A stretch of 64,000 bases of DNA from Octopus vulgaris (taxonomy: Eukaryota). The notes under the pieces are model-generated. The model did not search any database. It was not told where the DNA came from and saw only the letters and a list, made by a program, of their open reading frames with translations. Shown here piece after piece: positions 2,601-52,695 of this stretch. Location: positions 116,312,001-116,376,000 of the forward strand of contig OX597814.1 of assembly GCA_951406725.2 (NCBI GenBank), in the 5' to 3' direction. The translations under genes and the position numbers were made by a program. How positions within the stretch are numbered: position 1 is the stretch's first letter; each line of letters starts with the position of its first letter.

Positions 2601-3430
2601 TAAAGTGTACTAGCCATCTGAATGTGGCTAGCCACTGGGGGTGGGGTGTTACTGATGCTTTTAGCCCCAGGAGATCAACGTCACCAGCTGGCCTTAGACA
2701 CAAAATTTCAGTGCCCTTGTGTTATTTGCAAAGGGAGGTCATCCTCCATCGAAAACCTAAGTGATACATACGGACTATAGTTTCAAGGTAATTGCCTCTC
2801 GTCAACGCATGGTAAACACCGGTTTTCGATGAAGGAGACCCTTGCAAATAATAACATTTAGCGTTTTTCACAGCAACCACTGTCACTGATTTAGAAAAAC
2901 TGTCTGAAAGCATTAATAAATCTCTGAACGAGATATAAACAGTAACCGCTCGACAACGTAAAGTGTACTAGCCATCTGAATGTGGCTAGCCACTGGGCGT
3001 GGGGTGTTACTGATGCTTTTAGCCCCAGGAGATCAACGTCACCAGCTGGCCTTAGACACAAAATTTCAGTGCCCTTGTGTTATTTGCAAAGGGAGGTCAT
3101 CCTCCCTCGAAAACCTAAGTGATACATACGGACTATAGTTTCAAGGTAATTGCCTCTCGTCAACGCGTGGTAAACACCGGTTTTCGATGGAGGAGACCCT
3201 TGCTCGAAAACCTAAGTGATACATACGGACTATAGTTTCAAGGTAATTGCCTCTCGTCAACGCGTGGTAAACACCGGTTTTCGATGGAGGAGACCCTTGC
3301 AAATAATAATATTTAACGTTTTTCACAGCAACCACTGTCACTGATTTAGAAAAACTGTCTGAAAGCATTAATACATCTCTGAACGAGATATAAACAGTAA
3401 CCGCTCGACAACGTAAAGTGTACTAGCCAT
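2601..3430 (-). mobile_element. Tandem 358-bp HHR-containing repeat (retrozyme-like), two units plus a 17-bp stub, with an internal 97-bp duplication
   Basis: Units start with taaagtgtactagccat at 2601, 2959 and 3414. 3107-3203 is repeated at 3204-3300. A long hairpin (gttatttgcaa...catcgaaaacc / ggttttcgatg...ttgcaaataat) is capped by an HHR motif. Confidence 0.85.
2767..2811 (-). ncRNA. Minimal type I hammerhead ribozyme, C3U variant (further copies at 3125-3169 and 3222-3266)
   Basis: Minus strand reads catgcg UUGACGA gagg-caauua-ccuu GAAA cuauag UC cguaug: stems I and II pair, stem III is palindromic, triplet is GUC. Confidence 0.75.
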
Positions 3431-4409
3431 ATATGTATGTATGTATGCATGCATGTATGTATGTATGTATGTATGTATGTATGTATGTATATATGTCATC
3501 ATTCAGTTTATTTCAACATATTTTGCCAATAGAGAAAAAACGGCCGAAGTATACTGCAGCCAACTGGACAAAATGATGCAGACACTTACAAAAAAAACCC
3601 AACCTAGATTAGACCCACTCCTATTTTATTGCAAGAAAACGCCAGACCACACATCGCATAAATGACATTGGTGATACAAGAGTTGGAGTTGGAAGTTCTC
3701 CATCATCCACCATACTCACCTGATCTCGCCCCCACTGACTACCACTTCTTCCCGAATTTGGATAAATTTTGATAGGAAAAAATTTAATCTCGACAATGCT
3801 GCAAAACAGGCCCTCCAAGATTTTGCTGACTCTAGATTGCCAGGCTTTTACAGTTTCGGGCTGGGCAAGCTACCGCTGAAATAGCAAAAGTGTATAGACA
3901 ATAAAGGTGCATGCTTTGATGAATAAAACTATTCCTTGTAGTTGTAAAACATTAGCAATTTTTTCCTTTTCTACAAATTTCGAACTAATACATAAATACA
4001 CACACACACACACACACACACACACACATACACACGCACACACTTACACCTAGAACCACGCTAATAGCTTAAAACTTCTCGGTTTTCTATGAATCAATTT
4101 TGATAAAACATTTCCCAACGATTATTGAAAAGGGGGATATGCAACATTTAATGGGCAGATTTTTCACTGAATGTGTACATTTCGGACTCACAATTTAGTC
4201 TGGGAAAAACGAAAGTAATTTTTCCTCCTATACCAGGACAAACATATTCTGAACCAAATATTTTTGTGATTCCAGTTTTTATTTTCGAAGCTTAGCACTT
4301 ATTCTGTGTTATCCTTTTTCCGAATTGTTACCTTACCCAAATATAGCAACACCCGTTGTCAACCGATGTGGTGAGGAGAGAAAGACACAGATATGAATAC
4401 ACACATATT

Positions 4410-4600
4410 TATATAGAGTTTAAATTTACAGAAAAACAAAAAGCGAAGGCAGGTGTATGAACAACAGGCAGATGCATTAGTTTGACGCTCGGGAAAATGA
4501 GAAAGTCTTTTACGTTTCGAGCCTACGCTCTTCAACAGAAAGGAATAAGAGAAAATAAACAGAGAGAGAATAAAAAAAAACTTGTGGATTTAGCTATTTA
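4410..4600 (-). mobile_element. Penelope pLTR-like short element with HHR motif at 4507-4542
   Basis: cuuu CUGUUGA a gagc-guag-gcuc GAAA cg UA aaag, with one core mismatch (A6U). Related copies at 10845-10960 (truncated) and 47320-47545. Confidence 0.65.
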
Positions 4601-5692
4601 TATATAGTAGGCTTATAAACAGGGCTAATTTAGATTGTAAAAAAGAAATGATTTTCGAAATTTGTTGTATTCTTATCCGGTGTGGCGACACCAATTTGAA
4701 TAATTCCAGTGAAATATACATCCAATCTGTTTATATACTCAGCAATTACCGTAACTACAGAAACCTGAAATTACTAATTTGCATCCTGTAAGTGTTAACA
4801 CTCTATTAAATACCGGTGGCCTCGCAATGGGTTTGTCAATCGAAGAAGTATCAAGGTATGATATAATGTATGTAATCTATATAATAGATTTATTAACAGA
4901 AATAACTGAGCTATTTCTACGTAGATTGAAAAAAAAAAATAATACAGGATGAACAACCTGATACATAATTGAGTTTGACAGAGTTTCTCTGTACCAAATC
5001 CACGCACAAAGTATTGTCCAGCCTAGGGCTGAAATACATGACATTTACCCAATGACCGTAACTATTTCCTAGATGGAAATGTCAGTAAGATGTGCACTAA
5101 GGTGAACAGATATAAAGAACACGAACATGGAAAAGTGAAGATATGATTTCCTAGTTACTGAATATTACACTGTATTGATTATAGATAAGTATATATTTAC
5201 TTCTTGTATTACCTTAAACACTGGTATATTTCATAAAGAAAGAATTTTAATATTGAATTAGTAGAGTGTTTCTTTACTAGTTTTCTGCACAAATATATGA
5301 TTAGGCATAATATTTTCGTCTATATGTTAGCGAGAAGAATTATGAAATATGTTAGTAATGAGAAAATTGCTTGAAAATGAAGATGTAATTAAAAAATATA
5401 TATATATCTTTCCAAATAGACAATTTTTCTTAGCCAAGAATTTATGGAAATAAATATATAACAAATTCAGTGGCAAATACTTAAGAACGACGGTAATCGA
5501 CTTAATTGCTCTTAATATTTCATTGCTACTTATTGTATTGGCGCCTAAAGCAGAACACCGACAAAAATATAAACTTTACAAATGAAAAGCATTTTCTAAT
5601 GAGATGGTTGAACAGCGCTCCTTACTCACTTAATGGTAGATATAGGAGCAAGTATTTAAATATAAATACATACATACACACACACACATATA

Positions 5693-5860
5693 CTTTATTA
5701 AAAAACCAGCAAAAATATCACAAAAACTGTTGCTCAGGGTTTCACGTTCACGTTCGTCAGACAGTTTTGTTTAGAATTTCTAAACAAAACTGTCCGACGA
5801 ACGGGAGCGCGAAACTCTGAGTAACAGTTTTTGTGATATTTTTGCTGCTTTTTAATAAAG
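5693..5860. repeat. ~84-bp-arm inverted repeat made of two head-to-head HHR-bearing segments
   Basis: Centre at 5777. Left arm (minus): aaaacugu CUGACGA acg-ugaa-cgu GAAA. Right arm (plus): aaaacugu CCGACGA ... GAAA cucugag UA acaguuuu. Confidence 0.85.
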
Positions 5861-5882
5861 CACATTACTCTACCTCTGTAGG

Positions 5883-50980: not shown

Positions 50981-51524
50981 AATATAAAAAATATTATTTT
51001 GGCTATAATCCACTGATGGGTATAAAAAGACTTCATACATATATATATATATATATATATATATATATATATATATATATATATAGACATGCATATATAC
51101 ATGAACCTTCACGATCAGAGAACCGGTAGATATGCTAACTCTGTGGAAAACCTTAGTCCTGAGAAGATTAGATTACTGCTCACAGCTGTAGTCTTCAAAT
51201 TCACCCCGGTCTTATAGGAAGAAATTGAAGGGTTACAAAGAACATTCACCAGTAAAATAATCGGTTAATGGCCTTAATGTCTGGGAACGCCTGATTCTGT
51301 AGACAGATAAGCAAGTACTCTCAGTAAGTGATGAAATTCCATCGCACTACATGCATAGACGTCGGCTCTATTGTTCTTTGTCTATCAACGGAGACATCGT
51401 GCGTAAAGGCATGTTATTTACACCTGTCTGTAGCACACAGTATTGAATAAAATCTTTGTGTGTGTGTGTGTGTGTGTGTGTGTGTGTGTGTGTGTGTGTA
51501 TGGATGTATGTATATAGATATATG

Positions 51525-51824
51525 TTTGTTCCTTCTCGAGCCACGTCTGGCTCGTAAGGGCCGGTTTCCCGGTTTCATTGGCGTATAGGTTCCCCACCTG
51601 GACGGGACACCGGTCCGTCGCGGGTGAACTGCAAGATGCAAGAGGAAAGAGTGAGAGAAAGTTGTGGCGAAAGAGTCAGCAGAAGTTCAGCATTATCTTC
51701 TGCTGGAGCCGCGCGGAGCTTAGGTGTTTCGCTCATAAACACACACATCGCCCGGTCTGAGATTCAAACCCGCTATCTCTCGACCGCGAGTCCGCTGCTC
51801 TAACCACTAGGTCATGTGCCTCCA
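51525..51824 (-). mobile_element. tRNA-derived SINE; head related to 48669, 3' half related to 50800
   Basis: Minus strand tggaggcacatgacctagtggttagagcagcggactcgcggtcg...ggtttgaatc. Confidence 0.85.
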
Positions 51825-52059
51825 TATATTATTTTAATCTTTTAAAGGTTTCAGTCACCGGACTGCGGCCATGCTTAAGAACGGCCTTAATCTTTGGTCA
51901 ATGATCGAATTTGCTGTAGTTGATCTCCACTGGGAATGCCCGAAAGCTCTGCAGCTCTACTCTGAGAGAGAGAGAGAGAGAGAGAGAGAGAGAGAGAGAG
52001 AGAGAGAGAGAGAGAGAGAGAGAGAGAGAGAGAGAGAAGGAGAGAGAGAGAGAGAGATA

Positions 52060-52420
52060 TTAACTATTATATACGTACGGAAGATCCTAGAGAGTCATGT
52101 TCCAAACATTGGCATCAAAGCGAATTCTAATGCTCGAACTGGTAGGTACTGACAGCTTCCAAATATACCATCTTCAAAGCCACAAGCATAATCACTGTAC
52201 TGAATGTACCATTCTAATATTCAGAGATTCTCAAGTATTCAACTTCTTACCCAAAGATATTAGAAATATAACGGGGCTTCAACTGAATCTTTCACAACAG
52301 AATTGGCGGAAAGCCTGACGACGATACTGGACCAACCCACCATTTACGGATACACTCAGGGGAGATCAACTACTACAAATTCGATTATTGACCAACTTTC
52401 AATCAAAAAGTGGCAAAAAA
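52060..52420 (+). mobile_element. Decayed CR1/L2-group LINE 3' fragment
   Basis: IIYVRKILESHVPNIGIK..NARTGR, FNFLPKDIRNITG; homologous to 5938-6300. Confidence 0.7.
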
Positions 52421-52451
52421 AAGTATATATGAGGCATATATATTTATATAC

Positions 52452-52695
52452 ATAGCTGTCGCCAATCTAATATGGCAGTTCATAAATATAGGACGAATGC
52501 TGCCGTTGATTAGCTCCAAGAAGCCATCGCCTCTAGCTAGCTATGTGAAACACGAACTAACTAGAGGCAATGGCCTCTTGGAGCTAATCAACGGCAGCAT
52601 TCGTCCTATATTTATGAACTGCCATATTAGATTGGCGATAACTATTAATATCCAGTACCGCTGCCGTAGTCTCCCTTCGAGAGACCTAGAAATAT
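52452..52695. repeat. ~89-bp-arm palindrome (52452-52645) built from the conserved domain of the retrozyme-like family
   Basis: Right arm ctagaggcaatggcctcttggagctaatc...ctgccatattagattggcga...gtctcccttcgagagacctagaaat aligns with 45245-45378. Confidence 0.8.

What the first reader, a model, noticed from the sequence alone, without database searches (positions are those of the whole stretch)
2601..52695. Family of ~350-nt hammerhead retrozyme-like repeats with a second conserved RNA domain shared across four divergent subfamilies
Seen: arrays at 2601-3430 (358-bp unit, minus), 37237-37998 (346 bp) and 45201-45692 (356 bp, plus), plus pieces at 52452-52695 and 2358-2422. Each full unit has a long hairpin capped by an HHR motif, and the hairpin sequence is unrelated between subfamilies. 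A ~140-nt segment is alignable in all of them on the ribozyme strand: (U/A)(A/G)GCYARCU.G...CYUGG(G/A)GCUAA...(A/G)GYA, then a GCCA-YAUUNNNU-UG(G/A)C hairpin, then a UCUC-loop-GAGA hairpin followed by UUUA(GAAAU). Pairing is kept while sequence changes (uccuggg/cccagga versus cugggg/ccccag; different loops). Established: metazoan non-LTR retrozymes are short tandem HHR repeats processed into circular RNAs. Inference: these are cephalopod retrozymes, and the conserved non-HHR domain is an uncharacterised functional RNA module such as an RT recognition site, internal promoter or second catalytic motif. I could not match it by eye to twister, pistol, HDV or hairpin ribozymes.
Basis: partly seen in the sequence, partly recalled or inferred. 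Interest (0 to 1): 0.9.

Follow-up and report, generated by a model that had tools for sequence, protein, structure and literature searches.

The report
Ribozyme retroelement with folded copying signal
This genome carries an estimated tens of thousands of copies of a 350-base non-coding repeat with a hammerhead ribozyme motif and a second, conserved folded region, and because the copies end at two fixed points on that fold it is likely the docking and start signal for a borrowed Penelope-type reverse transcriptase.

Summary
The repeats are real: six homologous subfamilies (343-359 nt, non-coding, type I hammerhead), about 50,000 insertions in G000 (14 in 800 kb sampled). The subfamilies are one old family: the hairpin region is homologous too (49-66% identity versus 52-70% in the domain). 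The ~130-nt domain has a fold supported by compensatory changes: an interrupted hairpin, then a long-range helix (42 of 42 Watson-Crick cells, 5 of 7 pairs compensated) closing a three-way junction. New here: 174 of 199 copy 3' ends fall at two sites, one in the junction linker and one just past the domain; in 43 of 46 two-armed insertions the arms use different sites; duplications of 10-13 nt flank AT-rich targets. These are Penelope-like (PLE) insertion hallmarks, matching the two internal start sites shown in vitro for a lizard PLE. No autonomous PLE carrying the domain was found in 8 groups checked. Verdict: a non-LTR retrozyme moved by PLE machinery, with a likely RT-recognition fold; cleavage, circles and the partner enzyme are untested.

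The parts
2601..3430 (-). Subfamily A insertion, about 2.3 head-to-tail 358-nt units with a 97-nt internal duplication; 3' end (2601) 12 nt past hairpin H4 = site 1; 5' end abuts (TATG)n
2773..2805 (-). Type I hammerhead motif, U3.G8 core variant, predicted cut after 2773 (repeated at 3131-3163 and 3228-3260)
2906..3059 (-). Complete conserved domain of A: H1 3021-3051; H2 3006-3012 paired with 2940-2946; H4 2971-2986; H5 2921-2933
2359..2431 (+). Separate short fragment of the domain (H1 3' arm to just past H4), ending near site 1
37237..37787 (-). Subfamily B arm, about 1.6 units; 3' end at site 2 runs into (TA)n at 37200-37237; domains at 37241-37392 and 37581-37710 (the latter with a deletion)
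37457..37487 (-). Decayed hammerhead motif of the B unit (core and cut triplet mutated)
   Evidence: not found by the motif scan
37783..37998 (+). Inverted B arm (domain 3' part and the following hairpins)
45201..45693 (+). Subfamily C insertion: short inverted piece 45201-45216, then 1.34 units of 356 nt; 3' end 18 nt past H4 (45660-45675) = site 1, into (TA)n
45232..45384 (+). Complete conserved domain of C (H4 45304-45319, H5 45357-45369)
45485..45515 (+). Canonical type I hammerhead (CUGAUGA core, 4-bp helix II, short palindromic helix III, GUC), predicted cut after 45515
52446..52557 (-). Subfamily D inverted arm, 3' end 15 nt past H4 = site 1
52555..52700 (+). Subfamily D main arm with the whole domain, 3' end at site 2; AT-rich 14-nt repeat on both flanks; no hammerhead in this truncated two-armed insertion

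Best explanation
A non-coding ~350-nt hammerhead repeat family whose copies end at two fixed points on a conserved fold, likely a non-autonomous retroelement (non-LTR retrozyme) that a Penelope-like RT-endonuclease would copy by binding that fold and starting inside the RNA. Shown: six homologous subfamilies; compensated helices H1 and H2, with H2 enclosing hairpins H3 and H4 (three-way junction); 3' ends at site 1 (12-20 nt past H4, in the unpaired junction linker) and site 2 (45-60 nt further, past H5); ragged 5' ends; inverted second arms; 10-13-nt target duplications in AT-rich and (TA)n DNA. Inferred: a PLE protein (a dimer, by analogy with the Anolis element) binds the fold, nicks both target strands 10-13 nt apart, and each nick primes cDNA, one at site 1 and the other at site 2, which gives head-to-head two-armed insertions with the 'tail' on one arm only; one-armed copies arise when one nick is extended. 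The template is an uncut multimer or a circle, because many arms run through the hammerhead cut site. Inferred and untested: hammerhead cutting of tandem transcripts gives monomers whose ends pair along the rod and are ligated into circles.
For: Fold: RNAalifold on a structure-blind alignment of 16 copies finds H1, H2, H4; 34 named pairs, 85.6% paired, 15 with changes on both sides, 0 of 500 shuffles reach the covariation score, slid controls 34-48% paired; at the majority letters of six subfamilies H2 core is 42 of 42 Watson-Crick with 5 of 7 pairs compensated and H1 63 of 66; of 13,530 possible 5-bp stacks only 3, all in H2, pass a covariation filter; single-copy folding recovers H2, H4 and H5 in 5 of 6 copies as the minimum-energy fold and in the sixth (A) as the centroid. 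Ends: 174 of 199 alignment blocks in 131 loci end in two windows covering about a tenth of the unit; 63 of 131 loci have an inverted arm, 46 have both arms at a site, 43 of these use different sites (p 2e-10 against 1/2, 2e-5 against 2/3). Target: non-simple repeats of 8 nt or more on both flanks in 31 of 131 loci against 3 of 121 mismatched flank pairs, mode 11-12 nt; (TA)4 at a boundary in 54 of 131 against 11% background. Template: 26 of 75 D and F arms extend past the upstream cut site, 5 of 75 start within 5 nt of one. Literature: two internal RT start sites bracket the tail, both strands are nicked and extended, AT-rich targets (PMC11167929, parts 1-2 of 4 read); tail on one end, inverted copies, (TA)n bias (PMC8557442, PMC3846280, passages); retrozymes as non-autonomous PLE derivatives (10.64898/2026.07.22.740005, parts 1-3 of 5).
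Against: No autonomous PLE with this domain was found: 8 groups checked (6 Neptune-like, 1 Hydra-like, 1 Poseidon-like), so the enzyme is unidentified. The strand on which the fold acts is not fixed by my tests: G.U against A.C cells 32 to 24 (p 0.17), 6 to 4 at majority letters, and the reverse strands fold as well or better in 5 of 6 copies by energy z-score. H5 shows no change on both sides, H3 pairs in only 68% of cells and shifts register in A and E. The structure was chosen after seeing the alignment, and independent compensated steps are few (24 parsimony steps over 15 of 34 pairs). The end windows were drawn after seeing the data, TA targets blur ends by some bases, and the loci are the best-scoring hits. 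The youngest subfamily (A) has a U3.G8 hammerhead core in 34 of 34 motifs and B cores are mixed, so cutting may be weak; in the Anolis element cutting is not needed in vitro (PMC11167929).
Confidence: 0.7

Rival explanations
1. The two sites are RNA 3' ends made by processing (the domain as a second self-cleaving motif or nuclease target), and RT copies from those ends as a LINE would.
For: Site 1 is sharp (+16 in 14 of 20 A ends); 18 unpaired columns are invariant across six subfamilies; three-way junctions occur in small ribozymes (recalled).
Against: It does not explain why two arms of one insertion use different sites in 43 of 46 cases; site 2 is spread over 10 or more bases; no Rfam family matches (Rfam also missed the plain hammerhead, so the test is weak); the same two-end pattern is internal initiation in the one PLE tested (PMC11167929).
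Confidence: 0.1
2. The fold acts on the other strand or in DNA (antisense template, cDNA or cruciform read by the GIY-YIG endonuclease), not on the hammerhead-sense RNA.
For: No G.U bias; reverse strands fold well; an antisense template has been proposed for PLE palindromes (PMC3846280, passage) and the Drosophila endonuclease needs the tail in DNA (cited in PMC11167929).
Against: Fixed ends lie at the 3' side and ragged ends at the 5' side of the hammerhead-sense strand, as expected for cDNA made on that RNA; the long-range H2 is not a cruciform.
Confidence: 0.1
3. The units are simply the terminal repeats (pLTRs) or truncated 3' ends of an autonomous PLE family not sampled here, with no independent life cycle.
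For: Insertion anatomy is that of PLEs; G000 holds many PLE families (6136, 17464, 5694 and 9622 first-look candidates) and only 8 groups were checked.
Against: Units join head to tail with no ORF between (dimers and trimers); 5 of 349 domain hits have a same-strand PLE ORF piece within 2.5 kb upstream against 11 on the opposite strand, and the two read in full are separate insertions; upstream sequence in D and E copies is the hammerhead rod, not coding DNA. Ancestry from a pLTR remains likely.
Confidence: 0.08

Closest known systems
Metazoan non-LTR retrozymes (Cervera and de la Pena 2020, PMC7229834; Li, Clavereau and Pollet 2026 preprint 10.64898/2026.07.22.740005)
   Same: Non-coding ~350-nt units (mussel units are 350-390 nt), canonical-type type I hammerhead with short palindromic helix III, dimers and trimers, low GC, target duplications longer than 4 nt, PLEs in the same genome.
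   Different: In the parts read, neither paper maps insertion ends, tails or inverted arms, or describes a conserved non-ribozyme fold. Most copies here are dispersed 0.5-2-unit insertions rather than long arrays. Circles and cleavage are shown there, not here. The mussel sequences could not be compared (supplement unreadable).
Endonuclease-bearing Penelope-like elements and their pLTR/tail (Poseidon of Anolis, PMC11167929; Adineta Penelope, PMC3846280; Naiad, Hydra, Neptune, PMC8557442)
   Same: 5' truncation, partial tandems, inverted second arm, optional tail on one arm, 8-13-nt duplications, (TA)n bias, hammerhead upstream of two 3' end points.
   Different: No ORF; tail of 45-60 nt rather than 30-40; the region around the two sites is free of coding constraint (in the Anolis element it lies in the ORF) and shows a compensated three-way junction; no pLTR of 8 PLE groups in G000 matches.
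Non-autonomous Chlamys PLEs such as MRC1 (PMC8557442, passage)
   Same: Non-coding, head-to-tail, pLTR-forming elements moved in trans by a PLE.
   Different: Those resemble the 3' ends of autonomous families and mostly lack hammerheads; here no matching autonomous family was found.
SINE superfamilies with a conserved central domain (Ceph, CORE; PMC5786205, passages)
   Same: Short non-autonomous repeat with a conserved ~130-150-nt domain in a cephalopod-like genome.
   Different: No tRNA head or conserved Pol III boxes, no LINE-type 3' tail; hammerhead, tandem units and two internal end points instead. Domain sequences were not compared directly.

Membership tests
Non-LTR retrozyme | Type I hammerhead in each unit | tested here: met
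   CUGAUGA core in C (15 of 19 motifs), F (6 of 7) and E (seen); compensated U3-A8 core in D (5 of 7); U3.G8 variant in A (34 of 34); mixed and decayed in B
Non-LTR retrozyme | Short head-to-tail units (150-400 nt), dimers to multimers | tested here: met
   Periods 343-359 nt; dimers and trimers at L040, L109, L297, L069
Non-LTR retrozyme | Non-coding, GC under 50%, no LTR organisation | tested here: met
   Longest ATG frame 29-67 aa in five tandem references; GC 0.39-0.47 in the four full window domains
Non-LTR retrozyme | Target duplications longer than 4 nt | tested here: met
   31 of 131 loci against 3 of 121 controls, mode 11-12 nt
Non-LTR retrozyme | Self-cleavage of transcripts | not testable with these tools
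   Needs in vitro transcription
Non-LTR retrozyme | Accumulation of monomeric circular RNA | tested here: inconclusive
   Only contigs of runs guessed to be RNA were available; they cannot show ends, strand or circles
EN+ Penelope-like element (mode of insertion) | 5' truncation, partial tandem, inverted arm, tail on one arm, AT-rich target with 8-13-nt duplication | tested here: met
EN+ Penelope-like element (autonomous) | RT plus GIY-YIG ORF between pLTRs | tested here: not met
   No contiguous ORF at 349 domain hits in 158 loci (2 of 4 candidate loci read in full)
pLTR of a resident autonomous PLE | Sequence or fold shared with the 3' end of an ORF-bearing family | tested here: inconclusive
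   Not met in 8 groups; the survey is not exhaustive
tRNA-derived SINE with conserved domain (Ceph, CORE) | tRNA-related head with Pol III A and B boxes | tested here: not met
   ARAGORN 0 genes in 10 element loci; boxes not conserved across five subfamilies
Known Rfam ribozymes and RNA motifs | Covariance model match to the domain | tested here: not met
   these scans also missed the evident hammerheads, so sensitivity is limited
Telomerase RNA CR4/5-type junction (recalled) | Three-way junction bound by the RT's RNA-binding domain | not tested
   Topological likeness only, from memory; no Rfam telomerase hit

The most novel reading that the evidence does not exclude
The domain is a free-standing RNA recognition module for a telomerase-related (PLE) reverse transcriptase: one three-way-junction RNA positions two RT active sites at two start points on opposite target strands, which would explain the one-sided PLE 'tail' and inverted arms in general; the family has outlived or left its parent and is recognised by shape alone by a resident PLE whose own end looks different, and the junction is a functional analogue of the RT-binding junction of telomerase RNA.
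Probability: 0.2. Interest if true: 0.85.

Novelty: new variant of a known kind. Interest (0 to 1): 0.55.

Why it matters
How animal retrozymes are moved, and what RNA signal a Penelope-like RT recognises, are open questions in the papers read. Here a retrozyme family leaves the full PLE insertion signature, and because the region is non-coding and about 40% diverged across six subfamilies, its fold can be read from compensatory changes, which is hard where the signal overlaps an ORF. It gives a defined ~130-nt candidate cis signal, two predicted start nucleotides per subfamily, and a near-obligate pairing of the two sites within one insertion (43 of 46) that constrains models of PLE integration. 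If portable, such a signal could direct a PLE RT to a chosen RNA. The kind of element is known, which caps the score.

Tried and rejected
Rfam: no match for the domain or the hammerheads in the window, C unit or F dimer. One search used a mis-set structure string for H1 and is replaced. Partner search: GIY-YIG family search, Hydra-like, Poseidon-like and a second young Neptune-like protein, with 3' ends read and scanned by profile and covariance model: every domain hit there looked like a separate insertion by strand or position; clade names rest on motifs read by eye, not on a tree. A faint likeness between the 781-aa Neptune-like 3' end and the domain was noticed by eye and not tested. Expression: no RNA holder listed; contigs of four runs guessed to be RNA cover the A unit but cover an unrelated repeat at 5740-6650 as deeply, so they say nothing on expression, ends or circles. 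Other organisms: one exact-pattern match in metagenome contigs, rejected by the covariance model. The whole genome could not be searched with the RNA model, so copy number rests on 80 evenly spaced 10-kb stretches: 14 insertions by profile, 11 by covariance model (three of these copies were in the model). Strand test by G.U bias and by folding energy: no answer. SINE reading rejected; a motif search in the supplement of PMC5786205 returned nothing even for 'Ceph' and is uninformative. The supplement of PMC8557442 holds none of two longer domain motifs. Supplements not seen that may bear on novelty: PMC7229834 (unreadable), the 2026 preprint (closed), and the repeat library behind PMC13282606, Repbase and Dfam, where these families may already be listed under another label.
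Full report
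Observation. The window lies in G000, a 2.8-Gb genome in 227 contigs, rich in TA and TATG microsatellites; 'octopus-like' is my guess, not a tool result. DNA searches with the four window copies gave 3043, 3020, 2465 and 2110 first-look candidates, of which 40 each were scored; two more subfamilies found in flanking DNA, E and F, gave 2620 and 3264. A profile of the shared domain found 18 hits in 14 insertions in 80 evenly spaced 10-kb stretches and none on the reversed sequence, which scales to about 49,000 insertions (Poisson range roughly 27,000-82,000); the covariance model gave 15 hits in 11 insertions. Subfamily ages differ: best A copies are 94-99% identical to the window copy, B and C 78-86%.

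One family, not four. The unit is 343-359 nt. It has a long rod with the hammerhead at its tip, then a run of hairpins that includes the domain. The domain is 129-132 nt from H1 to H5 in all six subfamilies and 52-70% identical between single copies, but the rod is also colinear (138-155 nt) and 49-66% identical, all 15 pairs above shuffles. Hammerhead cores: CUGAUGA in C (15 of 19) and F (6 of 7), also seen in E; a compensated U3-A8 core in D (5 of 7); U3.G8 in A (34 of 34); mixed in B. Helix III is short and palindromic, the type said to work as dimers (PMC4209133, passages). No long reading frame, tRNA or conserved Pol III box. Rfam gives nothing, not even for the hammerheads.

The fold. 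On a structure-blind alignment of 16 copies RNAalifold predicts a 5' hairpin, a long-range helix and the GCCA/UGGC hairpin, 11 of 21 pairs with changes on both sides. I refined this to five helices: H1, an interrupted hairpin; H2, which pairs the stretch after H1 with a stretch about 65 nt downstream and so encloses hairpins H3 and H4 and an unpaired linker of about 23 nt (a three-way junction); and H5 (UCUC/GAGA). Counted on that alignment, 85.6% of 535 cells pair, 15 of 34 pairs change on both sides, no shuffle of 500 reaches the covariation score and slid partners pair at 34-48% (one search had a mis-set H1). On a tree these are 24 independent steps over 15 pairs; 5 of 34 named pairs have two or more steps at high pairing against 39 of 9968 other column pairs. 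At the majority letters of six subfamilies (177 copies added) the H2 core is 42 of 42 Watson-Crick with 5 of 7 pairs compensated, H1 is 63 of 66, and only 3 of 13,530 possible 5-bp stacks pass a covariation filter, all in H2. Against: H5 never changes on both sides, H3 is weak and shifts register in A and E, the structure was chosen with the data in view, and neither G.U bias (32 to 24; 6 to 4) nor folding energy tells the strand.

Where copies end. I mapped alignment blocks in 131 loci of A, B, C, D and F (135 fetched, 4 duplicates dropped) against real tandem copies. 5' ends are ragged. 3' ends, on the hammerhead strand, fall at two places: site 1, 12-20 nt past H4 inside the junction linker (peak +16 in A, +18 in C and F, +15 in D), and site 2, 45-60 nt further, past H5. 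74 blocks end at site 1, 100 at site 2, 25 elsewhere; the windows were drawn after seeing the data but cover only about a tenth of the unit. 63 loci have an inverted second arm; in 17 one arm ends elsewhere and was left out; of the other 46, 43 have one arm at each site, 2 both at site 1 and 1 both at site 2. The D and F queries required one site-2 arm, hence the second test against 2/3 (p 2e-5). Flanks carry non-simple direct repeats of 8 nt or more in 31 of 131 loci (3 of 121 mismatched controls), mostly 10-13 nt; flanks are 79% AT against 64%, and (TA)4 lies at a boundary in 54 of 131 against 11%. Ends are not tied to the hammerhead: in D and F, whose queries did not include it, 26 of 75 arms run past the upstream cut site and 5 start within 5 nt of one. 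The window's own D insertion is a two-armed case: minus arm at site 1, plus arm at site 2.

Mechanism. These are the marks of endonuclease-bearing Penelope-like elements: partial tandems, inverted copies, a tail on one end, 8-10-nt duplications, (TA)n bias (PMC8557442 and PMC3846280, passages). For the Anolis Poseidon protein it was shown in vitro that both target strands are nicked and extended at AT-rich sites, that RT starts at two sites inside the RNA, that the tail is the stretch between them, that a downstream RNA segment is required, and that hammerhead cutting is not needed (PMC11167929, parts 1-2 of 4). I therefore read sites 1 and 2 as internal RT start points and the fold around them as what the protein binds (inferred). 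The near-obligate use of different sites by the two arms suggests one complex with two active sites, each primed by one of two nicks 10-13 nt apart (inferred). Arms that cross the cut site need an uncut multimer or a circle as template (follows from the sequence); whether circles form is untested. In circular-mode folds of real monomers the two sides of the cut site pair along the rod, which would hold the ends together for ligation as proposed for retrozymes (PMC7229834, discussion and passages).

Partner. G000 has many PLEs, several young and intact. I read or scanned the ends of six Neptune-like groups, one Hydra-like and one Poseidon-like family (names from motifs, not a tree). All but one or two show hammerhead-like motifs near (TA)n or AT-rich ends and some show two ends, but none carries the domain. 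Across 311 held sequences, 5 of 349 domain hits have a same-strand PLE ORF piece within 2.5 kb upstream and 11 an opposite-strand one; L133 and L077 were read and are separate insertions, L002 and L033 were judged from coordinates only. The survey is small against the 190 PLE families reported for one octopus genome (PMC13282606, passages and supplement search), so the enzyme is unknown.

RNA evidence. None usable: no run on record as RNA, contigs only, and an unrelated repeat is covered as deeply.

What is known. The kind is known: non-LTR retrozymes (PMC7229834) and their derivation from PLE pLTRs (2026 preprint, parts 1-3 of 5), which states that the mobilisation mechanism remains open. Seven literature searches turned up no description of cephalopod retrozymes, of a conserved non-ribozyme fold in retrozymes, or of arm-wise pairing of the two start sites; the library lacks most subscription papers, and Repbase, Dfam and several supplements were not seen. 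Earlier notes of this scan on similar elements in other genomes agree in kind and pointed me to PMC3846280; they are not evidence.

Verdict. Real, abundant, and best filed as a new variant of a known kind: a retrozyme family with PLE insertion marks and a compensated RNA fold that sits on its two copy end points. PLE-type mobilisation is about 0.9 likely, the fold as sense-strand RT recognition and start signal about 0.7, circular intermediates about 0.5.

Noticed in passing
L257-L285 (for example L257, about 150-230 nt past the ORF end): A Poseidon-like PLE family has a tRNA-like stretch (by eye) in its 3' untranslated region just upstream of a hammerhead; ARAGORN called no tRNA in 6 of these loci.
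   Followed up: partly
L164-L174: An abundant Hydra-like PLE family (17464 first-look candidates) also has two 3' ends, with an unusually long optional tail of about 140 nt, both running into (TA)n.
   Followed up: partly
L131, L132, L138: Young Neptune-like family with many intact 781-aa frames; 3' region holds repeated ATTGG and TGACGTC motifs (promoter-like), a U3-A8 hammerhead core, and two ends 73 and 113 nt past the cut site (13 and 4 hits).
   Followed up: partly
L362-L371: Second young Neptune-like family with many identical copies and frames of 1,050-1,200 aa; minimal hammerhead with a U3.G8 core like subfamily A; one dominant end 110 nt past the cut site (30 hits).
   Followed up: partly
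all six subfamilies, for example L297:1151-1175 and L297:1338-1356: Further conserved hairpins outside the domain: a GACAC/GUGUC hairpin before H1, an AGAAAU/AUUUCU hairpin at site 2 (B, C, D, F) and a CAGUG/CACUG-type hairpin after site 2.
   Followed up: no
window 3106-3300: Perfect 97-nt duplication inside the A insertion that repeats the hammerhead and part of the rod, giving three hammerheads within 490 nt.
   Followed up: no
window 61904-62077 (-): C-terminal fragment of a Hydra-like PLE ORF, 41-52% identical to the families fetched.
   Followed up: no
window 5740-6650: Another high-copy repeat, covered by many divergent contigs in all four runs laid.
   Followed up: no
window 52060-52420: Stretch upstream of the D insertion that by eye resembles the 3' end of a LINE ORF (recalled motif, not tested).
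   Followed up: no
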